A stretch of 64,000 bases of DNA from a phage. Shown one piece after another: positions 3,808 through 59,395 of the stretch; the first letter of the stretch is position 1, and every line of letters begins with the position of its first letter. The notes beneath the pieces were generated by a model. That model was not told the DNA's origin. It did no database searches and worked only from the letters and a program-made list of their open reading frames with translations. The position numbers and the translations under genes were made by a program. The DNA lies in NCBI GenBank assembly GCA_020241865.1, contig GCA_020241865.1_4709.1; one strand, written 5' to 3'.

Positions 3808-4449
3808 TTAAATGTACTGCTTACCGCCCACGAAGGAAGTTAACCAGTTCCCGCTGACGAGTTGTGATACCCAGCCTGGAACGGCTCTACCATTCTGGCT
3901 CATGATGTTACCACACCAACCAGGGAATCCGGGACGGATGTAATAGAAAGTTAAATTGTAGAGATGGCAATTCCATACCGCAACGTTATGTTTACCAGAA
4001 ACCGCTTTAAAGACAAACGCGACAGGTAACGGAGACGATAACAATTCGGTCACAGGGACGGCTGACCAGTTCGCATTCGCGTTCCATGGTTGCCAGGTAT
4101 GGCTGCGCGAGTCGCAATATACGTTACCGTTGTTACCGCGCCCACCCGCATTCCACCACAGCGACGGACTCATGTTCTTAAGTGAGGTAAATTGCTGCGG
4201 TGGAATATTAGGAATAATAACAGGGTTGGTACCTTGCCCATGTTTCTTTTCTTTTGCGTTCACATACCCGCTTATCGATTCGAGGTATTTGACACCAGGA
4301 TAATTATTCTGGACTTGTGTCGCAATATCACGAACATCGAACGTCCAGCAGATCATGGTGTTGTAGTAAGCATCGGTGTTGTCGTACCATGCGTTACCAT
4401 CTTGTAAACGTGCGCCACTATTCGGTGTTTTATCTGTGTTTATAGCCAT
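3808..4449 (-). CDS. small protein of the tail-fibre locus, paralog of 4561..5277
   Basis: 213-aa ORF; C-terminal 40 aa (GFPGWCGNIMSQNGRAVPGWVSQLVSGNWLTSFVGGKQYI) nearly identical to the C-terminus of 4561..5277. Confidence 0.55.
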   Translation of the reverse strand: MAINTDKTPNSGARLQDGNAWYDNTDAYYNTMICWTFDVRDIATQVQNNYPGVKYLESISGYVNAKEKKHGQGTNPVIIPNIPPQQFTSLKNMSPSLWWNAGGRGNNGNVYCDSRSHTWQPWNANANWSAVPVTELLSSPLPVAFVFKAVSGKHNVAVWNCHLYNLTFYYIRPGFPGWCGNIMSQNGRAVPGWVSQLVSGNWLTSFVGGKQYI

Positions 4450-4547: not shown

Positions 4548-4578
4548 TATCTAACTTCAATTAAATTGAAGTTAGATA
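4548..4578 (-). terminator. 31-bp perfect palindrome (15-bp arms) overlapping the stop codon of 4561..5277; terminator or operator-like site
   Basis: tATCTAACTTCAATT-A-AATTGAAGTTAGATa with every position paired; on the minus strand it is followed by a U-rich tract (CUGUUUUAUCUG). Confidence 0.4.
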
Positions 4579-5277
4579 TTGTTTACCTCCAACAAACGAC
4601 GTTAACCAATTACCTGAAACAAGTTGCGATGCCCAGCCAGGCACTGCCCTACCGTTCTGGCTCATCACGTTACCTGCCCATCCCGGAAAACCAGGTCGGA
4701 AAATATATACTTGAATATGTGTTAAAGCGTTATCATTACCACCGCCAACAGCAACGTTACGACTCCCAGATGACGGGAAATATTCTTTTAAGAACAGAGG
4801 ATCGGTTGCTAATAAAGATGCGGGCCAAGGGTTCGCAGATGCATCAACATCGAATTCGGTCCATCGCCATTTACGTCCCGTGTCGAACCATGTCGATGTA
4901 CCACCACCCCTCACGACAAGATTGCGCGCATCATGGACATTATAAATTGATTCGATGTTACGCCATCCACCTTTTGCAGCGTTTGCTGCATAGCAAACCG
5001 CATTACCACCATTCTTCTTCTCGTAAACGGTTCGTTTGATATGAACACGGTCGATGAACGCTTCACCGTATTTGTTGACGAGCGTTTGTGCGATATCACG
5101 AAGATCGTGCATGTGAAAAGCGATGTCTTCGTTATGGAACCATGTTGTCTGGTTCCAGACGGTACCGTTTGGTTCGGCACACATCGATCGGATATTGTTG
5201 CGTTGATTAATCGCGATAAAACCCATTGTATACCTCGTTCCTATTCTCAAAAAGGAAATTTCATACGATGACGCCAT
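4561..5277 (-). CDS. small protein of the tail-fibre locus, paralog of 3808..4449
   Basis: Track ORF 4561..5313 trimmed to ATG at 5277 (MASSYEISF), because the first 12 codons are the translation of hairpin 5282..5311; the 3' arm of that hairpin (GGAGGAGC) sits 4 nt upstream of this ATG as a Shine-Dalgarno sequence. Confidence 0.55.
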   Translation of the reverse strand: MASSYEISFLRIGTRYTMGFIAINQRNNIRSMCAEPNGTVWNQTTWFHNEDIAFHMHDLRDIAQTLVNKYGEAFIDRVHIKRTVYEKKNGGNAVCYAANAAKGGWRNIESIYNVHDARNLVVRGGGTSTWFDTGRKWRWTEFDVDASANPWPASLLATDPLFLKEYFPSSGSRNVAVGGGNDNALTHIQVYIFRPGFPGWAGNVMSQNGRAVPGWASQLVSGNWLTSFVGGKQYLTSI

Positions 5278-5281
5278 AGCA

Positions 5282-5311
5282 GCTCCTCCTTCCCTTACGG
5301 GTTGGAGGAGC
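5282..5311 (-). terminator. GC-rich hairpin (8-bp stem GCTCCTCC/GGAGGAGC, 14-nt loop) between genes; its purine arm doubles as the ribosome-binding site of 4561..5277
   Basis: Inverted repeat 5282-5289/5304-5311; loop ttcccttacgggtt matches the loops of the hairpins at 149 and 43776. Confidence 0.55.
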
Positions 5312-5319
5312 ATACTTAA

Positions 5320-10089: not shown

Positions 10090-11859
10090 TTATGCCGCTA
10101 CATACCCAGGCCAACGTTCTCTTGGCCAGTTTGTTGCGCCCTGTCCAACGTTGTCCTTACCAGAAGTTACATTACTTACGTCCCAACCACTAAGATCCTG
10201 GTTAAATGCGGTGTTGTTGCGCATCATGAGGTCGATCCTACGTAACGATTGGGTATTCCAGCCGGAAATGTCTTGGTTGAATGCCGCGTTGTAAGCAAAC
10301 ATGTTAACAACGTCTTGTAATTTTGAAGTGTTCCAGCCGCTTATATCGCTATTGAACCGCATGTTCGAGAACATACTGCTAGCGTTGACAAGACTACCTG
10401 TTTTCCAGTTAACCAGCTTGTCCCCATCAAGTGCATAGCAGCTACTGAACATGTAACTCATGTCGTTAACTTTGGATACATCCCATTTATCTAACCCGTT
10501 ACCAACGAACTTGCGACAATCTTGGAACATCGAGCTCATATCGGTAACCTGGCTCACATTCCATTTGCTAAAGTCGAGGTTGAGGTTTGTGCATCCGGAG
10601 AAGGTTTGATACATACTGGTGATACGACTAACATCCCATTCTTGAATGTTAGGATCATTAAGTATAGATAAGAATTTGAACAATTCGTCTAACGACGTCC
10701 ATTTCTCTGGGATACGGTTTGGTACGGTACGGAGTGATAAAAGGTAACTGGTTGACGGAGAGCGGAACATACCGTTATCCCAATTTACGATTTCTGTAAT
10801 GTTGGACCCACGGATCGTTTGGCGTCCGTTACCATTATACACAGACCCTGTTGCAGTTATTGTATATTCGTTTGTATCAGCATACGTATATTCAGCCTGT
10901 GTAGGCCACTCACCTATTACATCCCTATTCCCATCGCCCCAATCAATGGAAATATCTATCCAACCATCAAGATCTAGGGTAACGGTCCCGCCATTGGTCT
11001 TCAGGACGTATTTACCTGCATTGTCGGTATAATAACAAACAATCATCGCACCGTACAGGTTACCAATTTGCCAATCATCCTTTTGAGTTACCGCGATATG
11101 TGCTGTGCCACGTTGTAGGAAAAGAACCGTACGGTTCTCGTCAGTCTGTAATGTGGTTAATGCTTGAGCCTTATCATCGTCGGTAATTTCACCAGCTTCC
11201 ACTAAAGCACTTAACATTCTTTCGAAGTATTCGATGGGTAATTGGCGTCCTACAGACATATCAACTGATGGAACAGCGAGATCATCCAATGCGGCGGCAG
11301 TTGCAAGCACTAATGATCCATTGGTGGTGTCTGTTTCTTGGAGGTAATGCAGTCCCGTAATCTGGTACGCTTGAATGATTGTAATCAGATCCAGCGTATC
11401 GTTAATGACCTGTACTTGTAAATGTCCAGACCAAACATAGCTGCTTTCAGCAATCGGTAATTCGACCGACTGAATACCCGATGTTTCAAAACTGATCTTC
11501 TTATTAAGATCGGCTTCCAGGAAATCAACCGCGAGGTCGAAATTTATACCGTACTTTTCAGCGATGGAATCTATGATGTTCCTGAAAGCAACATCGGTAC
11601 TTACGATGAATCGTAAAGGGATTCCTGTGAACGCATTAGCAATATCTCGACGAACATACGTAAGTGATTGTTCGAAGAAATAGGGACTGTTATCTCCAGG
11701 TTTGATGGTTACCTGACACATTTCAGGATGTTCAGCTGGGATGAACGATTCAAATTTAACATCGGATTCCTTCAACGAAAGCATGTTCTTCCGGTTTACC
11801 AGCGCCAGAAGATCGGCTTTCCATCCAGGATAAACAGTAGACATAAGCACTCCAATCAT
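10090..11859 (-). CDS. tail fibre with shared N-terminal anchor module and C-terminal DUF285 (BspA-like) repeats
   Basis: 589-aa ORF; N-terminus YVRRDIANAFTGIPLRFIV ... YGINFDLAVDFL; C-terminal repeats such as WNVSQVTDMSSMF, WDVSKVNDMSYMF and FNQDISGWNT match the DUF285 repeat pattern. Confidence 0.75.
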   Translation of the reverse strand: MIGVLMSTVYPGWKADLLALVNRKNMLSLKESDVKFESFIPAEHPEMCQVTIKPGDNSPYFFEQSLTYVRRDIANAFTGIPLRFIVSTDVAFRNIIDSIAEKYGINFDLAVDFLEADLNKKISFETSGIQSVELPIAESSYVWSGHLQVQVINDTLDLITIIQAYQITGLHYLQETDTTNGSLVLATAAALDDLAVPSVDMSVGRQLPIEYFERMLSALVEAGEITDDDKAQALTTLQTDENRTVLFLQRGTAHIAVTQKDDWQIGNLYGAMIVCYYTDNAGKYVLKTNGGTVTLDLDGWIDISIDWGDGNRDVIGEWPTQAEYTYADTNEYTITATGSVYNGNGRQTIRGSNITEIVNWDNGMFRSPSTSYLLSLRTVPNRIPEKWTSLDELFKFLSILNDPNIQEWDVSRITSMYQTFSGCTNLNLDFSKWNVSQVTDMSSMFQDCRKFVGNGLDKWDVSKVNDMSYMFSSCYALDGDKLVNWKTGSLVNASSMFSNMRFNSDISGWNTSKLQDVVNMFAYNAAFNQDISGWNTQSLRRIDLMMRNNTAFNQDLSGWDVSNVTSGKDNVGQGATNWPRERWPGYVAA

Positions 11860-32270: not shown

Positions 32271-32529
32271 TTACGCCAGGCGGTACCACAATACCGGTAC
32301 GAATCACAGCAGCAACTTCCTGCATGCCCTTACCCTTCAACGCATAGGTTTCATGTACCACATTACGTCGAGTCGTTAATCCAACAAATTTACATACAAC
32401 CATGTTGTTTTCTGAAAGATAAGCGGTGTCGAGTTCACCGTGCAACAATTCTTTTTCTTTGGTATCAATACCTAATAACGCAATTTGATAAGCAGAAAGT
32501 TTCCAATAACGCATAATCGTCCTATTCAT
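32221..32529 (-). CDS. hypothetical protein
   Basis: 102-aa ORF; overlaps the downstream gene, so the start is uncertain. Confidence 0.35.
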   Translation of the reverse strand: MNRTIMRYWKLSAYQIALLGIDTKEKELLHGELDTAYLSENNMVVCKFVGLTTRRNVVHETYALKGKGMQEVAAVIRTGIVVPPGVSDNLDEVLHGTRKTAR

Positions 32530-33350
32530 AAACTATCAAATATTCTGAAACCAAGTTTCTTGTTTCTACTTTTGCCGAAATCGTTCTTCGTACAGTTACA
32601 GGGTACAATTTTGTCGCCGAACTATAAATCTCTTCAGTCAACGCACAAGCACTGTTGCTAATGATTGTAGGAATTCCCCGCGAGCGCAAGTTGTCAGCCT
32701 TTTCTGCAAGATAACGATGATCGTCTAATGTAAACCCCTCTTGAGTATAGCCCGTAAACGATGCGGTGGGGGAAATGGGAATATAAGGAGGGTCGCAATA
32801 AACGACGTCACCCGGAACCACCTTTTCAAGATGCTTCTGGAACCCACCACTTACAATTTCTACCCCCCCCCCCCTCGACGAAGGCAGCCTGAAGATGGTT
32901 CGCTGCCAGACGCAATTCCTGTTTCGGGAAATAGACGGTCTTATACCGCCCATGCGCAACATTAAATAAACCATCACGATTATAACGACATAAGCCATTG
33001 AAACCGTAACGGTTTAAATACATGAAGCAAACTGCGCGTTCCCACGGATCTTCAGCGCGGTTAAAACGTTCACGTATCTCGTAGTAGCTTCTGACGTCGG
33101 TAGGATCCGTTTGAAAAAGACGTTCCACTTCTTCGATGAAAGATTCTGGACGCGCTAGCAACGCAGACCATACTGAGAGAATATCCTCATTCGCATCACC
33201 TATCGAATACGCTGGGTACTTAAGAGCAAGCGTAACAGCGCCGGAACCAACGAATGGTTCAACAAGACGCTTTCCTTTAGGTAACACTTTTTCAATCTCA
33301 GGGATAAGCCTGGTTTTGTTCCCAAGCCATTTAAGAAATGTTCTGCTCAT
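32522..33350 (-). CDS. dam: DNA adenine (N6) methyltransferase, Dam family, reading frame interrupted at a G12 homopolymer
   Basis: Two overlapping ORFs (32826..33350 and 32522..32998) whose frames differ by 1 are together collinear with E. coli/T4 Dam: N-terminal KWLGNKTRL ... EPFVGSGAV SAM-binding region in the first, catalytic DPPY motif in the second; the junction is the G12 run (C12 at 32863..32874 on plus); one fewer G would fuse the frames. Confidence 0.8.
32863..32874. repeat. C12 homopolymer (G12 on the coding strand) inside the dam coding sequence
   Basis: 12 consecutive C counted directly; encodes GGGG in the upstream frame; same length and same TCG 3' flank as the tract at 10047..10058. 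Confidence 0.9.
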
Positions 33351-37633: not shown

Positions 37634-38261
37634 TGATACCTTCTATTAGTTGTACAGCAACTTCTTTTTCGGTGCTATAAAAGAACTTGCGATGGAACTG
37701 AACAAGAAGTTTTTCGAATTTACATTGAACGATCTTTTTGCGTTCGATATGACCCAGGGAGAGCAAAGCACCCATGCAACGTACCGCTTGTTCGAGAACT
37801 TGTTTCGCGGTATCGTGATCGTCCGGTAACGGTAAATCTTCCTCATCGTCTTTAGCGATAAGGCGTCTGATGATGTTATCGATACGTATCTCATCACCGT
37901 TAATAAAAGCCCCCTTCTCCCAGTCATCGAATCGTTGATGGATTCGACGTTGTAAGTTGGCCCTGTCTTCCATTAACTCTTTCAACTGGCTTTCTAAATG
38001 GGATACGGTACGGCGGTCGGTTTCAGTGAAGTTTTCCGATTCTTTGTACCACCAATCATTACGCGATAGTAAATCGTTAACGCGCGAAATCGTCCGACGA
38101 CACTCACTAACAAGCCCGTCACCATTCGGTAGCTCTGTACCAAAATAGCATTTGTATTTATAACGCATAACACGGATTAAACGTTTCGCTAGAAAACCTT
38201 GCCTTTCCAGTTTCTTCTTCAGTTGTGTGTATTTCTCTTCTTTTGTTTCCATTAATTCCAT
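37620..38261 (-). CDS. hypothetical protein
   Basis: 213-aa ORF. Confidence 0.45.
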   Translation of the reverse strand: MELMETKEEKYTQLKKKLERQGFLAKRLIRVMRYKYKCYFGTELPNGDGLVSECRRTISRVNDLLSRNDWWYKESENFTETDRRTVSHLESQLKELMEDRANLQRRIHQRFDDWEKGAFINGDEIRIDNIIRRLIAKDDEEDLPLPDDHDTAKQVLEQAVRCMGALLSLGHIERKKIVQCKFEKLLVQFHRKFFYSTEKEVAVQLIEGINEVK

Positions 38262-38650
38262 GATGTTGTACCTCGTTCAGCAATCAGGAGAGTCGTGGTT
38301 GTGCTTTTCACTAATCTATTAAAGTCTTGATATATCCGCCTGAGGGATGATTTCAAATCACAATAACGGCTGAAATAAACCTTCAAGTCATCTTTTGTCA
38401 CAGTCTCCGTATTTATTTTCGTAGAAACACCGAGATCGATAAACTCTTTTCTTAATTGGGATAATTCATCAAGAAGTCGATGATGGCTTAGATAAATAAC
38501 AGATTTATCGGATAACAACTCGCCGGTTATCCGGCTCTGGCGTTCATCGAAATATTGGAGCCGCCATTCAATTCGCTTACGTAATTTATCAAGTAAATCA
38601 ACAAAAGCGGTATAGCTGTTAACGGCTAGGTTAACTTGACTCGTTATCAT
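38252..38650 (-). CDS. hypothetical protein
   Basis: 132-aa ORF. Confidence 0.4.
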   Translation of the reverse strand: MITSQVNLAVNSYTAFVDLLDKLRKRIEWRLQYFDERQSRITGELLSDKSVIYLSHHRLLDELSQLRKEFIDLGVSTKINTETVTKDDLKVYFSRYCDLKSSLRRIYQDFNRLVKSTTTTLLIAERGTTSWN

Positions 38651-41215: not shown

Positions 41216-42100
41216 TCAATAACGACCGTAGCGTTCCTCGAGCCGTTTTGGTTTTCTCAGAAGGCTATCTTTAAGTGGTACGACGTCGATATCAACACTC
41301 TCTGAGTAATAGCCGTTAGAACTACCATACCAACGGATAACAACACAACCCTTTGCAGTACGGATATGGTAGAATGTCCATTGTGTACGTTCGCTATAAT
41401 AGCCGTAGTCATCGGTTCTTTCCTCGGTTCTTTCTTCAGCACTGAGTATCTTTTCACCGATGATATCATTAATATCGCCGTCAATGTCTTCAAGATACAC
41501 CTCTTCGCAGCAATCCTGCTGATGACAGAATTCGACAACGTTTCCATCACCACGATAGAAAAGAAGGGCGATACCGTTTCGTAATTGCTCGCTCGTTACA
41601 TCAGACACACAATGCAAACTTTTATCGTCGGTAATCACCAAGACGTTGTTGATTACATGTCCGGCAAGCGCTCCGATCTTATTTACCGTGATAATCGGAC
41701 GAACCGGTTCAGATTGAACGATAGGAATACGGACACAACCAATTAAAGCCATCCGTCCTTTCTTTGGTCTAACCGCAAGATACGGTGATTTTCTTGGGTG
41801 GTTATGTAGTCGTATTTCTACTTCGTTGAATTTAATCCCGTATGAACACAGAAAATAATTGAATAGTTTACGGAATTCCTCGGTTGCTTCTTGCAACGTG
41901 ATGTTATTTACTGTGAGTTTATGTCCCCTGAACACCCGGGTTAGATCGATAACATCCAGCGTTTTGAAATATATTTCCGTAAGGGGATGACCTGTGTATT
42001 CCAGGCAAGTAATTGTTCTTTGAACCACGATTTTAGGTTGTGCACCTTTAAAACGTTTCAGGTATTTAACACGATAGCGTGTATGATCTGATGTTAACAT
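41216..42100 (-). CDS. hypothetical protein
   Basis: Track ORF trimmed to ATG 42098..42100 (MLTSDHTRY), which is preceded by GGGAGAGGAG; the longer track start translates hairpin 42174..42196. Confidence 0.5.
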   Translation of the reverse strand: MLTSDHTRYRVKYLKRFKGAQPKIVVQRTITCLEYTGHPLTEIYFKTLDVIDLTRVFRGHKLTVNNITLQEATEEFRKLFNYFLCSYGIKFNEVEIRLHNHPRKSPYLAVRPKKGRMALIGCVRIPIVQSEPVRPIITVNKIGALAGHVINNVLVITDDKSLHCVSDVTSEQLRNGIALLFYRGDGNVVEFCHQQDCCEEVYLEDIDGDINDIIGEKILSAEERTEERTDDYGYYSERTQWTFYHIRTAKGCVVIRWYGSSNGYYSESVDIDVVPLKDSLLRKPKRLEERYGRY

Positions 42101-42173
42101 TTTAATCTCCTCTCCCGACTTCAGAGAATTCTTAAAATCCGTTAGTTTTGATAGATAGGGTAAGACGGCATAA

Positions 42174-42196
42174 AAGCCTCCCATTACGGGAGGCTT
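42174..42196 (-). terminator. hairpin of the recurrent family (AAGCCTCCC/GGGAGGCTT, loop attac) followed on the minus strand by TTATGCC
   Basis: 9-bp perfect stem; lies between the stop of 42208..42756 and the start of 41216..42100. Confidence 0.55.
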
Positions 42197-42207
42197 CATT
42201 AATCAGC

Positions 42208-57133: not shown

Positions 57134-59395
57134 TTACAATTCAAAATCTTCATCGATAACGCGCTGGGTAAGCACTTTGTCGCTGAAGAACTCCACCTTG
57201 CGCTGATGGTATTTACGATGTGCTTCTATCGAAGTACATACCAGATACCAGAACGTTGGTGTCATTCCTTCAAACTTCCCTTTCAGCTGACGTAGCCGTC
57301 CCAACACCTGAATGTTACCGGTTCGTGACCCCATCGCTAACGTCATGAACGTCATCACCAAGTCAGGAAGGTCGATGCCCGTACCTGCCGATTTCACGGT
57401 TGTAACGCTAATATCGTTATCCAACAAGACCATGAAATCTTCTTCAGCAGTATAAGGACCAATCTCTAACTCAGGAATACGTTCACTGAGATAATGCGAC
57501 AACGACTTACACATATCGACGGTTGCACAATACACCAGCATCTTCATACCTTCCTGATACTGGTTCATGAAACCTTTGATTATAACGGTATAGATGAAGT
57601 TAAAGTACGCGAGTTTGAGTTGCTTGTTCTTCATGATAGACTGTTCGAATATCGTGTGAGAATAAGAACCCCCAAAGCCTTTGTATCTGACTTTATCTGT
57701 ACTGCGTAGTCGATACGTCACGGCATTTACCGCAATGTATTTCTTGTATTCGCCTTTTGCATAACGGGCTTCTTTCGGATACATCAAATACAACATCCGC
57801 TCGATGAATGGATCGTCGGACACCGCCGTTGCTGACAGATAGATGATTTCCGGAATACTAGCGTAACACTTGACCTTAAACAAGAAATGCAATGCTTCAT
57901 GGCACTCGTCATGAATCAGAAGGCCTATGCCGGTCTTTTCCCAAAACTCGGCGGGATGGAAGGCATATGGCGCAACGCAGTTATTCTTCTCGTAGTCCGC
58001 AATATAACGTTGGAACATGTTCAAGGAGAACAATGCGATTTTGAAGTCGAGTTCACCTTGTTCAACCAAGGTTTGAAACTCCAACATACTGTAACGAGGA
58101 ATGTCGGGATGCGGTGGATCCTCCTTAGCGTTCCCGCGTATCTCGATAACATCCCCTGGTTCCATCCCGAAGAAGTTCAGCAGTGAGCTTCGCCAACCTG
58201 GCATATACCGCGGAGAAAGTATAATACCTGTGCGTACACCCCGCCTAAACACGATTTCCTGCGACATCGCGGTGTTATGCGTGACGATGTGGTCTTTAAT
58301 AACATAAAGGCTTTCGTCATTGTCCACCGTGATACAACGTGCTTTCGATTTCACCGTCGGCACGATGCTATCAATCGCTAAACCAGGAAGTCGGTTAACG
58401 GGGAGATCGTCTGGAATCTCAATGTCGTCAGGAATAAGCTTACGCAAATCGGAATGGTAAATTAATGTCACCATTATGTAACTATCAATGGGGTATTTAT
58501 ACGCAATTCCTCCTAACTGATAAGCCAACTCCCAGACCTTGGCTGTTATCTGCGAATTGACGGTTCTGACCGCAAGGTGAGCTTCCCCGTTTTTGATTCT
58601 CAGTTCACAACGACCTTTGATTACCGCCTTAAATTCCTCGAGACCGACGAGTTCTTTCGGTTCGTAAAGTCGGATTCTTACTGGACGAGATCGAGCAGGT
58701 CTGTCGTAAATACATTCCATGATTTCGTCCGTACTGAGAACTTTATCAGGGTCAGTACACTGCCAGAGATGATCACCACACGCTTCAACCATCCTACCGT
58801 CCTCAAAGAAGATAGCATAAAGCTGAATATCGTCATGATCAAATATAGCGGTTACGTTCGTCGGTAACCCATCCGCACCAATAACCTGATCCCCTAACTG
58901 AAGCTCGCCAATCGGCTTCCAACCGCCTGGAACCTTCACAGGTGTATTAAGCGGAATTGCTTTTCCTGACCCTGTTTGAGCGGTGTTTAGGCTCATTCTG
59001 AAGGGGGTATCCTTACCCCCGTCCATGTACTCCAACCATTCTTGCTGATCTTGACGCCATGGAAACTTCCATTTCTTTACGAACTCCACTTCTTTACCTG
59101 GTACCGGATCGTGATAGACGATTTCCAACCACTCTTTTCGTATCCCTCGAGAAAAGATAAAATCCAAAAACGATTTCAACTGTTCACGGAGTAAGTATAC
59201 CTCGCTATAATCGCTTCTTGCCGCGGCATACGTGTTTATGGTATCGGTAACCATTCTCCGTGTACGAGGGTCACGCCGTTTCCTCAGATGCAAACAACGG
59301 TCTCGAAGGTAATGGCCGATAAGATGGGCAAATCGAAGTCCGTATCCGCTCAGCCTCATGCCATGCGAGAAGACGTCGATACGAGCTAACTTCAT
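57134..59395 (-). CDS. SF2 DExH-box helicase/ATPase interrupted by an in-frame intein in the Walker A motif
   Basis: 753-aa ORF; Walker A is split as TGSGK / intein / T, which would read TGSGKT after splicing; motif II LLIHDECHEA downstream; start overlaps the stop of the upstream gene (ATGA). Confidence 0.75.
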   Translation of the reverse strand: MKLARIDVFSHGMRLSGYGLRFAHLIGHYLRDRCLHLRKRRDPRTRRMVTDTINTYAAARSDYSEVYLLREQLKSFLDFIFSRGIRKEWLEIVYHDPVPGKEVEFVKKWKFPWRQDQQEWLEYMDGGKDTPFRMSLNTAQTGSGKAIPLNTPVKVPGGWKPIGELQLGDQVIGADGLPTNVTAIFDHDDIQLYAIFFEDGRMVEACGDHLWQCTDPDKVLSTDEIMECIYDRPARSRPVRIRLYEPKELVGLEEFKAVIKGRCELRIKNGEAHLAVRTVNSQITAKVWELAYQLGGIAYKYPIDSYIMVTLIYHSDLRKLIPDDIEIPDDLPVNRLPGLAIDSIVPTVKSKARCITVDNDESLYVIKDHIVTHNTAMSQEIVFRRGVRTGIILSPRYMPGWRSSLLNFFGMEPGDVIEIRGNAKEDPPHPDIPRYSMLEFQTLVEQGELDFKIALFSLNMFQRYIADYEKNNCVAPYAFHPAEFWEKTGIGLLIHDECHEALHFLFKVKCYASIPEIIYLSATAVSDDPFIERMLYLMYPKEARYAKGEYKKYIAVNAVTYRLRSTDKVRYKGFGGSYSHTIFEQSIMKNKQLKLAYFNFIYTVIIKGFMNQYQEGMKMLVYCATVDMCKSLSHYLSERIPELEIGPYTAEEDFMVLLDNDISVTTVKSAGTGIDLPDLVMTFMTLAMGSRTGNIQVLGRLRQLKGKFEGMTPTFWYLVCTSIEAHRKYHQRKVEFFSDKVLTQRVIDEDFEL
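58274..58960 (-). mobile_element. intein (about 229 aa, Ala1 ... His-Asn, +1 Thr) inserted in the helicase P-loop
   Basis: Begins AIPLNTPVKVPGGWKPIGELQLGDQVIG (Hint block A-like) and ends ITVDNDESLYVIKDHIVTHN followed by T (blocks F/G with terminal HN); no LAGLIDADG or HNH motif recognised in the middle. Confidence 0.7.

What the first reader, a model, noticed from the sequence alone, without database searches (positions are those of the whole stretch)
58274..58960. Intein inserted in the Walker A motif of a DExH helicase, beginning with Ala rather than Cys/Ser
The helicase P-loop reads TGSGK, then about 229 aa, then T. The inserted segment starts with a Hint-like block (AIPLNTPVKVPGGWKPIGELQLGDQV) and ends with VIKDHIVTHN followed by Thr, the canonical intein C-terminal His-Asn and +1 nucleophile. 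P-loops are known intein hot-spots, but an Ala1 intein implies a non-canonical splicing mechanism (class 2/3-like; a WQCT segment is present). No LAGLIDADG or HNH homing endonuclease motif is visible, so it may be a mini-intein or carry an unrecognised nuclease.
Basis: partly seen in the sequence, partly recalled or inferred. Interest (0 to 1): 0.7.

Follow-up and report, generated by a model that had tools for sequence, protein, structure and literature searches.

The report
Class 3 intein in phage helicase
A self-excising protein segment (an intein) of the known "class 3" type interrupts the ATP-binding loop of a giant-phage helicase; it is real and almost certainly functional, but it is a typical member of a large known family and carries only a decayed remnant of its homing nuclease.

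Summary
The 753-aa ORF (57134-59395, minus strand) is the orthologue of Escherichia phage Goslar gp164, an SF2 DExH helicase. It is 98% identical to gp164 outside a clean 229-aa insertion between Lys and Thr of Walker A (GSGK|T). The insert is a class 3 intein: Ala1, block B His64/Trp66, block F Cys209, block G Thr227-His228-Asn229, Thr+1. Its best solved relatives are the class 3 DnaB inteins 6BS8 and 6RIX. Thousands of relatives share the same GK|[TS] P-loop site. The centre is not an unknown nuclease. It is one surviving LAGLIDADG half-domain whose catalytic Asp is now Asn. The splicing parts evolve under constraint as strong as the exteins (dN/dS 0.01-0.07), the centre under weaker constraint (0.10-0.46). 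Related phage contigs show the same site empty, holding this 229-aa intein, or holding a 352-aa intein with two LAGLIDADG motifs. Six of seven intein-bearing alleles share an adjacent extein patch 21-24% divergent from the intein-less alleles. Verdict: a real, new member of a known kind, unannotated in databases. Interest is modest.

The parts
57134..59395 (-). Precursor ORF, 753 aa plus stop (87.0 kDa): SF2 DExH helicase, orthologue of Goslar gp164 and phiKZ gp075, interrupted by the intein
58961..59395 (-). N-extein, aa 1-145, ending in the Walker A residues A-Q-T-G-S-G-K
58274..58960 (-). Class 3 intein, 229 aa (25.7 kDa)
57137..58273 (-). C-extein, aa 375-753, starting with Thr+1, which is also the Walker A Thr. 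Splicing restores GSGKT and gives a 524-aa, 61.2 kDa helicase
58958..58960 (-). Codon GCA = Ala1 of the intein (no N-terminal nucleophile)
   Evidence: Ala is in at least 90% of the 37 aligned relatives
58763..58780 (-). Block B core: Cys61-Gly-Asp-His64-Leu-Trp66 (B:7 Cys, B:10 His, B:12 Trp of the WCT triplet)
58334..58336 (-). Codon TGT = Cys209, block F position 4: the class 3 nucleophile
   Evidence: invariant; 200 of 200 relatives
58274..58282 (-). Block G end: Thr227 (G:5 of WCT), His228, Asn229
58271..58273 (-). Codon ACC = Thr+1, the C-extein nucleophile and P-loop Thr
58427..58654 (-). Vestigial LAGLIDADG half-domain (intein aa about 103-178; alpha-beta-beta-alpha-beta-beta). It is homologous to the second half of the endonuclease of full-length class 3 inteins; the first half is deleted
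58589..58591 (-). Codon AAC = Asn124, at the position of the catalytic Asp of the second LAGLIDADG motif (relatives read ..GLxDTDG..)
   Evidence: this position is Asn or Glu and the next is Gly or Arg among alleles
57899..58273 (-). First 375 nt of the C-extein: the intein-linked haplotype patch. It is 21-24% nt divergent from the intein-less alleles, while the rest of the gene differs by 2-11%. Interpreted as a co-conversion or introgression tract
58961..59020 (-). Last 60 nt of the N-extein: the short upstream part of the same intein-linked patch (10-17% between haplotype classes)
57899..57910 (-). Helicase motif II, D496-E-C-H499 (DExH)

Best explanation
The segment is a splicing-competent class 3 intein in the P-loop of the helicase of a Goslar-like, nucleus-forming jumbo phage. 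The helicase is made as an 87-kDa precursor whose Walker A motif is split between Lys145 and Thr375, so it should not bind or hydrolyse ATP properly. The HINT fold brings the two junctions together. The splicing steps are inferred by homology to the MP-Be DnaB, Msm DnaBi1 and Mch DnaB1 inteins. (1) The thiol of Cys209 (block F:4), helped by His64 and Trp66 of block B, attacks the Lys145-Ala1 peptide bond and forms a thioester branch on the intein. (2) The N-extein is passed to the hydroxyl of Thr+1. (3) Asn229, helped by His228, cyclises and frees the 25.7-kDa intein. (4) An O-to-N shift makes the Lys-Thr peptide bond, giving the 61.2-kDa helicase with an intact GSGKT. The centre of the intein is a leftover. 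One of the two LAGLIDADG half-domains has been deleted and the other has lost its catalytic Asp, so the intein most likely cannot home by itself. It probably persists because precise loss is rare, and it moves between co-infecting phages by ordinary recombination. Shown here: the exact insertion, the class 3 signature, the predicted fold, purifying selection on the splicing parts, the decayed nuclease, and the linked divergent flank. Inferred: the chemistry, splicing itself, and nuclease inactivity.
Against: No experiment: neither splicing nor the thioester branch has been observed for this intein. Pfam HINT models score below threshold. The centre is still under some constraint (dN/dS below 1), so a residual role is not excluded. 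The intein plus its flank is nearly identical between two phages whose neighbouring sequence differs by 4-5%. That suggests recent movement, which fits an active mobility mechanism better than a dead nuclease.
Confidence: 0.88

Rival explanations
1. The insert is a dead intein or a permanent insertion domain. It stays in the helicase, which either works unspliced or is a pseudogene.
For: No experimental evidence of splicing. Pfam HINT models score below threshold. The homing nuclease has decayed.
Against: The insert separates the Lys and Thr of Walker A. Every catalytic residue is invariant. dN/dS of the HINT part is as low as that of the exteins. The exteins are under strong purifying selection in intein-bearing phages.
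Confidence: 0.03
2. It splices by a class 2-like route, with the +1 residue attacking the N-terminal junction directly, or by a class 1-like route, rather than through the block F cysteine.
For: Ala1 alone is compatible with class 2. One close allele (P0156) begins with Cys.
Against: Class 2 inteins lack the WCT triplet and use Cys+1 (PMC2807308). This intein has WCT and Thr+1, and its nearest solved relatives are class 3. The window allele has no residue-1 nucleophile.
Confidence: 0.03
3. The central domain is still a working nuclease, for example as a homodimer of the single half-domain, or it is a new kind of nuclease. The intein would then home actively.
For: The centre has dN/dS below 1. 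The intein and its adjacent flank are nearly identical between the window and L012 although neighbouring sequence differs by 4-5%. Some alleles have Glu at position 124.
Against: Only one LAGLIDADG half remains, and the motif carries a 3-residue insertion. The catalytic position is Asn here and varies among alleles (Asn or Glu, followed by Gly or Arg). The centre's dN/dS is roughly 2 to 20 times that of the HINT part in the same comparisons. A separate 352-aa allele with both motifs exists at the same site and could account for the mobility signature.
Confidence: 0.06
4. Splicing is conditional and acts as a switch on helicase activity. For example, a disulfide between Cys209 and the nearby block B Cys61 could act as a redox trap, as in Msm DnaBi1. 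This is compatible with the main explanation.
For: Msm DnaBi1, the closest solved relative, forms an inhibitory disulfide through its catalytic Cys (PMC6195587). Here B:7 is Cys, the commonest residue at that position in the family at 79 of 200.
Against: No distance could be measured and nothing was tested. Phage proteins are made in the reducing cytoplasm. Most LAGLIDADG-bearing class 3 inteins are thought to splice constitutively (PMC7891396).
Confidence: 0.1

Closest known systems
Class 3 DnaB P-loop mini-inteins: Mycobacterium smegmatis DnaBi1 (PDB 6BS8) and M. chimaera DnaB1 (PDB 6RIX/6RIY)
   Same: Ala1, block B His-x-Trp, block F Cys, Thr-His-Asn end, and insertion after the Walker A Lys with the P-loop Ser/Thr as the +1 nucleophile. 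They are the best sequence hits (E 4e-11) and the best fold hits (TM 0.82-0.86).
   Different: The host is the DnaB replicative helicase of bacteria, not an SF2 DExH phage helicase. +1 is Ser rather than Thr. They are 139-145 aa with only an unstructured linker, whereas this one is 229 aa with a folded half-LAGLIDADG domain. B:7 is Asp in DnaBi1 and Cys here.
Mycobacteriophage Bethlehem DnaB intein (MP-Be DnaB), the prototype of class 3 (Tori et al. 2010, PMC2807308)
   Same: Phage origin, a helicase-type ATPase host, no residue-1 nucleophile, the WCT triplet, Thr+1, and a LAGLIDADG-type insert.
   Different: MP-Be starts with Pro1. Its numbering (block F Cys320) implies roughly 340 aa, and cloning toxicity points to an active endonuclease. 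Here residue 1 is Ala and the endonuclease is reduced to one inactive-looking half.
Allelic inteins in the orthologous helicase of other phiKZ-like phages: metagenomic contig L019 (352 aa), Erwinia phage Kwan gp48 (342 aa, Val1), Pseudomonas phage EL gp040 (248 aa, Met1)
   Same: Same gene, downstream of an RNA polymerase beta-subunit gene, and the same GxGK|T site. Same block F RC/QCI..V and IVTHN|T end. L019 is 58% and 53% identical to the window intein in the two HINT parts.
   Different: L019 carries both LAGLIDADG motifs with their Asp residues. Kwan carries both motifs, but its first reads LIGNG rather than LLGDG. Both have Pfam-type LAGLIDADG regions. EL, like the window, keeps only one half. 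The GenBank records call these genes only 'DNA helicase'.
PI-SceI (yeast VMA1 intein), the reference LAGLIDADG intein
   Same: A HINT domain with an inserted LAGLIDADG fold. The model matches with TM 0.61-0.66 normalised to the query.
   Different: PI-SceI is class 1 (Cys1, Cys+1) and has a complete, active two-motif endonuclease plus a DNA-recognition region.
Methanococcus jannaschii KlbA intein (class 2)
   Same: It begins with Ala.
   Different: It has no WCT triplet, Cys+1 attacks the N-terminal junction directly, and the block F Cys plays no part.

Membership tests
Intein (HINT superfamily) | In-frame insertion that is absent from an otherwise collinear homologue, located at a conserved functional site | tested here: met
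   Goslar gp164 is 98% identical in the flanks and lacks exactly aa 146-374. The site lies between Lys and Thr of Walker A. Two further intein-less alleles exist, L018 and L020.
Intein (HINT superfamily) | Splicing blocks A, B, F and G with a C-terminal His-Asn and a +1 Ser, Thr or Cys | tested here: met
   Alignment to 6bs8 and 6rix. NCBIfam TIGR01443 scores 16.3 bits against a cut-off of 15.6. The 37-sequence alignment shows the invariant residues.
Intein (HINT superfamily) | HINT fold | tested here: met
   Prediction only: AlphaFold pLDDT 91.9. Foldseek top hits are inteins, E 7e-10 and TM 0.86 to 6riy.
Intein (HINT superfamily) | Protein splicing actually occurs | not testable with these tools
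   Only indirect support: dN/dS of the HINT part is 0.01-0.07, equal to the exteins.
Class 3 intein (Tori et al. 2010) | No Cys, Ser or Thr at intein position 1 | tested here: met
   Ala1, codon GCA at 58958-58960.
Class 3 intein (Tori et al. 2010) | Non-contiguous WCT triplet: Trp at B:12, Cys at F:4, Thr at G:5 | tested here: met
   Trp66, Cys209 and Thr227 align with Trp67, Cys118/124 and Thr137/143 of DnaBi1 and MchDnaB1. They are conserved in 194, 200 and 199 of 200 relatives.
Class 3 intein (Tori et al. 2010) | Block B His at B:10, and +1 Ser or Thr | tested here: met
   His64 is invariant. Thr+1 is present here, and T or S is found in 195 of the 200 related copies for which +1 could be read.
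Class 3 intein (Tori et al. 2010) | Block F branched thioester intermediate and an absolute requirement for the F:4 Cys | not testable with these tools
   Needs C209A, T375A and N229A mutants and thiol-sensitivity assays.
Class 2 intein (KlbA type) | No residue-1 nucleophile, no WCT triplet, and Cys+1 attacking directly | tested here: not met
   WCT is present and +1 is Thr.
Active intein-borne LAGLIDADG homing endonuclease | Two LAGLIDADG motifs (two half-domains), each with a catalytic Asp or Glu | tested here: not met
   Only the second half-domain remains. Its motif reads IKGRCELRIKNG, with Asn124 in place of the Asp. Pfam PF14528 does not score on the window intein, although it does on the L019 allele.
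Mini-intein | No endonuclease domain between blocks B and F (about 130-200 aa) | tested here: not met
   The intein is 229 aa, with a confidently folded alpha-beta-beta-alpha-beta-beta domain of roughly 75-100 aa in the centre. Functionally it probably behaves like a mini-intein.

The most novel reading that the evidence does not exclude
The retained half-LAGLIDADG domain and the block B Cys61 next to the catalytic Cys209 are not junk. On this reading the intein is a regulated switch, for example redox-controlled or DNA-dependent conditional splicing that times activation of the helicase during infection by a nucleus-forming phage. Alternatively the half-domain still supports mobility, by binding the target or by acting as a homodimeric nuclease, which would explain why the intein plus flank is nearly identical in phages that otherwise differ by 4-5%. 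The Ala1/Cys1 polymorphism among roughly 85%-identical alleles would then offer a natural bridge between class 1 and class 3 chemistry.
Probability: 0.1. Interest if true: 0.55.

Novelty: new member of a known kind. Interest (0 to 1): 0.3.

Why it matters
It corrects an annotation. A cluster of 158 near-identical proteins in Salmonella and E. coli assemblies is labelled 'hypothetical protein', and the orthologues in phages EL and Kwan are labelled plain 'DNA helicase'. All are in fact intein-containing precursors of a conserved phiKZ-like helicase. Goslar is a laboratory model for nucleus-forming phages. It and this relative form a natural intein-minus/intein-plus pair with 98% identical exteins. 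Metagenomic contigs add a third allele at the same site with a complete endonuclease. Together these give a compact system for studying the intein homing cycle and co-conversion in phage populations. The intein is also a class 3 intein native to E. coli and Salmonella phages that could be tested as a protein-engineering tool. Conceptually nothing here is new: class 3 inteins were defined on exactly this kind of element.

Tried and rejected
1. Direct Pfam and NCBIfam scans of the intein gave only sub-threshold HINT hits and one marginal intein_Cterm hit, so they could not classify it alone.
2. The search for homologous proteins with the single intein returned only one partial 129-aa fragment. 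A profile query was needed, and all its hits were shorter than 500 aa.
3. phmmer with the central region alone found only near-identical alleles. Homology to LAGLIDADG appeared only with a six-sequence profile and with hhalign.
5. I asked whether free-standing homing endonuclease genes lie in the other window-specific insertions. None does: they are a Dam-like methylase, DUF285, DUF7448 and unknowns.
6. A search for other inteins in the window found none.
9. Megablast against complete E. coli genomes and PLSDB plasmids found nothing.
10. Tori & Perler 2011 (PMC3133030) is not held. My statement that WCT inteins beginning with Cys or Ser still use the class 3 route rests on memory of that paper.
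11. The distance between Cys61 and Cys209 in the model could not be measured, because coordinates are not exposed.
Full report
**What is at the coordinates**

The minus-strand ORF 57134..59395 encodes 753 aa. Residues 146-374 map exactly to window 58274..58960. The sequence reads ...NTAQTGSGK | AIPLNTPVKVPGGWKPIGELQLGDQV ... VIKDHIVTHN | TAMSQEIV....

Megablast against phage genomes finds Escherichia phage Goslar, a nucleus-forming jumbo phage, at 91% nucleotide identity in two pieces that skip the middle of the query. Goslar gp164 is annotated as an SF2 DNA helicase of 524 aa. It aligns at 98% amino-acid identity on both sides and lacks precisely the 229 residues, reading GSGK|TAMSQ. The insertion therefore lies between the Lys and the Thr of Walker A. 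The helicase has motif II DECH. G+C content of the insert (45.9%) equals that of the exteins (46.2%).

**What kind of element it is**

phmmer against all PDB sequences puts three class 3 intein chains on top. They are Mycobacterium smegmatis DnaBi1 (6bs8, E 3.9e-11) and M. chimaera DnaB1 (6rix and 6riy). Ala1 aligns with Ala1, GDHLW with AQHQW or AAHQW, RCITVDN with RCVEVDN, and THN with THN.

The literature defines class 3 as follows: no Cys, Ser or Thr at position 1, plus a non-contiguous Trp-Cys-Thr triplet at block B:12, F:4 and G:5. These inteins nearly always have Ser or Thr at +1. They occur in helicase-like ATPases, and most are inserted in a P-loop (PMC2807308; PMC5050341; PMC6195587; PMC7664689).

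Here those residues are Ala1, His64 (B:10), Trp66 (B:12), Cys209 (F:4), Thr227 (G:5), His228, Asn229 and Thr+1. Only the Trp belongs to the triplet. Gln67 varies among close alleles. Cys68 and Thr69 are kept in the close alleles but not in more distant relatives, which read WKVL, WKVI or WEVA.

**How large the family is**

An exhaustive HMMER search of 1.84 billion representative proteins gives 9548 hits at E<=1e-3 and 2012 at E<=1e-10. The top 150 proteins contain 224 intein copies:
- Residue 1 is Ala in 124 copies, Pro in 30 and Gly in 15.
- The +1 residue is Thr in 147 and Ser in 48.
- The preceding residues are mostly xGK.

Among 200 copies, Trp is at B:12 in 194, Thr at G:5 in 199, and the block F Cys is present in all 200. 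A profile search returned hosts that are all P-loop NTPases: DnaB, PhoH, RecD-like, UvrD-like, AAA+, ClpC and terminase. In a 37-sequence alignment, His64, Cys209, Val226, Thr227, His228 and Asn229 are invariant. Lys-1, Ala1, Trp66 and Thr+1 are at least 90% conserved.

Hoffmann et al. counted 1701 class 3 inteins in nr, 82.5% of them with LAGLIDADG motifs (PMC7891396). This is a typical member of a large known family.

**Structure**

I modelled the intein with four native residues on each side, using AlphaFold2 and the 37-sequence alignment. The model has pLDDT 91.9 and pTM 0.87. Foldseek against the PDB ranks the class 3 inteins first (6riy, 6rix and 6bs8; TM 0.82-0.86 normalised to the target). 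PI-SceI follows, covering more of the query (TM 0.61-0.66 normalised to the query).

**The central domain**

The model shows a helix-strand-strand-helix-strand-strand unit between the two HINT halves.
- A profile of the centre from six 217-230-aa relatives matches the central part of 342-354-aa relatives. It does so exactly where Pfam finds LAGLIDADG_3 (PF14528) and Hom_end.
- The multiple alignment shows that the short inteins lack the first half-domain (LPIDPYxLGxLLGDG...) and keep the second.
- hhalign between independently built alignments gives 97.8% probability and E 8.8e-13 over 69 columns. It aligns to the second half, with window Asn124 opposite the catalytic Asp of ..GLxDTDG...

So the centre is not an unrecognised nuclease. 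It is half of a LAGLIDADG endonuclease with its catalytic acid replaced. From general knowledge of LAGLIDADG enzymes, this Asp binds the catalytic metal and two motifs are needed per active enzyme. I therefore infer that the nuclease is inactive.

**Evidence that the intein works**

The exact 753-aa protein is on at least 24 independent contigs. It is NCBI ECE9610406.1, a 'hypothetical protein' on a 243-kb contig of a Salmonella Typhimurium assembly. It belongs to a 90%-identity cluster of 158 members from Salmonella and E. coli assemblies.

Among the cluster alleles that differ in the intein, it differs at 6-15% of residues against 0.4-1.7% for the exteins. No allele changes His64, Trp66, Cys209, Thr227, His228 or Asn229.

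With DNA of four diverged 229-aa alleles from metagenomes, Nei-Gojobori estimates are as follows:

| Region | dN/dS |
|---|---|
| Exteins | 0.01-0.08 |
| Intein HINT part (aa 1-80 and 206-229) | 0.01-0.07 |
| Intein centre (aa 81-205) | 0.10-0.46 |

The splicing module is as constrained as the helicase itself. The nuclease remnant is relaxed but not neutral. The insertion splits the P-loop, and the exteins are under strong purifying selection (147 nt changes against Goslar but only 12 aa changes). Splicing must therefore restore the helicase.

**History and mobility**

The whole window is collinear with Goslar 93297-154133 at 91-97% identity. Within the helicase gene, mismatches against Goslar are 0-7 per 75 nt away from the site. 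They rise to 10-21 per 75 nt from about 60 nt upstream to about 390 nt downstream of the insertion point.

Ten alleles are now available:
- Six carry the 229-aa intein: the window, L012, L014, L015, L016 and L017.
- Three are intein-less: Goslar, L018 and L020.
- One, L019, carries a different 352-aa class 3 intein at the same site. It has both LAGLIDADG motifs (LGVLLGDGHL and LAGLIDTDGTV) and Pfam PF14528 and PF05204 hits above threshold. It is 58% and 53% identical to the window intein in the two HINT parts.

The first 375 nt of the C-extein fall into two haplotype classes 21-24% apart. Elsewhere in the gene any two alleles differ by only 2-11%. Six of the seven intein-bearing alleles, including L019, have one class. 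All three empty alleles have the other class, as does one intein-bearing allele, L017.

The window and L012 are nearly identical over the intein plus this patch, although their flanks differ by 4-5%.

This is the signature of introgression of an intein together with flanking extein DNA from a diverged donor (co-conversion), followed by recombination. The three states at one site (empty, endonuclease-intact and endonuclease-decayed) give a snapshot of the classical homing cycle. Which nuclease drove the movement is not shown. The L019-type enzyme is the obvious candidate.

**Wider distribution**

tblastn of the intein against GenBank phages hits 366 records. tblastn of the spliced helicase hits 291 records, all phiKZ-like jumbo phages. 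In 171 of them one match covers at least 80% of the query, as in phiKZ gp075. Many of the others begin near residue 146, consistent with interruption at the P-loop.

Two distant orthologues carry class 3 inteins at the same GxGK|T position. They are Erwinia phage Kwan gp48 (342 aa, Val1, both motifs) and Pseudomonas phage EL gp040 (248 aa, Met1, one half). Both genes lie downstream of an RNA polymerase beta-subunit gene, as in the window, and both are annotated only as 'DNA helicase'. I found no paper describing this helicase intein.

**Verdict**

The element is a bona fide and very probably active class 3 intein with a vestigial LAGLIDADG half-domain. It is a new, unannotated member of a well-described kind, sitting in that kind's classic location, so the surprise for a specialist is small. 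The most useful by-products are the annotation fix and the natural three-allele system in relatives of a model phage. Predicted sizes for experiments are 87.0 kDa for the precursor, 61.2 kDa for the helicase and 25.7 kDa for the intein.

Noticed in passing
L019:1036-2091 (metagenome contig ERZ1664509 NODE-51), same site as window 58274-58960: A Goslar-like helicase allele carries a different 352-aa class 3 intein at the identical GSGK|T site. It has two LAGLIDADG motifs with their Asp residues (LGVLLGDGHL, LAGLIDTDGTV). Its C-extein patch is the same divergent type as the window's.
   Followed up: partly
L017:601-2859 (JACXXQ010000003.1): This allele carries the 229-aa intein, but both of its flanks are Goslar-like (the intein-less type). 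The intein and the divergent extein patch can therefore be separated by recombination.
   Followed up: partly
Protein P0156 (NCBI EBX6513999.1, Salmonella Panama), allele of window 58274-58960: A roughly 85%-identical allele of the same intein begins CLEIS (Cys1) instead of AIPLN (Ala1) while keeping the WCT triplet. It also has Glu at position 124. This is a natural Ala1/Cys1 polymorphism within one intein lineage. Its DNA could not be fetched.
   Followed up: partly
window 32522-33350 (minus strand): A D12-class (Dam-like) N6-adenine DNA methyltransferase that is absent from Goslar. It is split over two overlapping ORFs: 32826-33350 covers Pfam PF02086 positions 1-159, and 32522-32998 covers positions 158-253. 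This is a frameshift, a pseudogene or a sequencing error.
   Followed up: partly
window 4561-5313 and 3808-4449 (minus strand): A window-specific 250-aa ORF is a paralogue of its 213-aa neighbour. They share the C-terminus ..RPGFPGWxGNxMSQNGRAVPGWxSQLVSGNWLTSFVGGKQY. Goslar has only one copy here.
   Followed up: no
window 10090-11859 (minus strand): An extra 589-aa protein with DUF7941 and DUF285 (BspA-like repeats) lies next to the tail-protein genes. It is absent at this position in Goslar and about 66% similar in DNA to Goslar gp161. It may be a host-range determinant.
   Followed up: no
window 41216-42199 and 38252-38650 (minus strand): Two further window-specific ORFs relative to Goslar: a 327-aa protein with DUF7448 and a 132-aa protein with no family. 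Neither is a homing endonuclease.
   Followed up: no
L010:2036-4759 (Erwinia phage Kwan gp48) and L011:2063-4345 (Pseudomonas phage EL gp040): The orthologous helicases of two distant phiKZ-like phages contain class 3 inteins at the same P-loop position (342 aa starting with Val, 248 aa starting with Met). RefSeq annotates both only as 'DNA helicase'.
   Followed up: partly
window 58961-58990 and the matching positions of L012 and Goslar: The P-loop codons just upstream of the insertion site differ by synonymous changes in all three genomes (GGG TCA GGA AAA, GGG TCG GGG AAA and GGG TCT GGT AAA). This is unusually dense silent variation in what would be the homing-site half.
   Followed up: no
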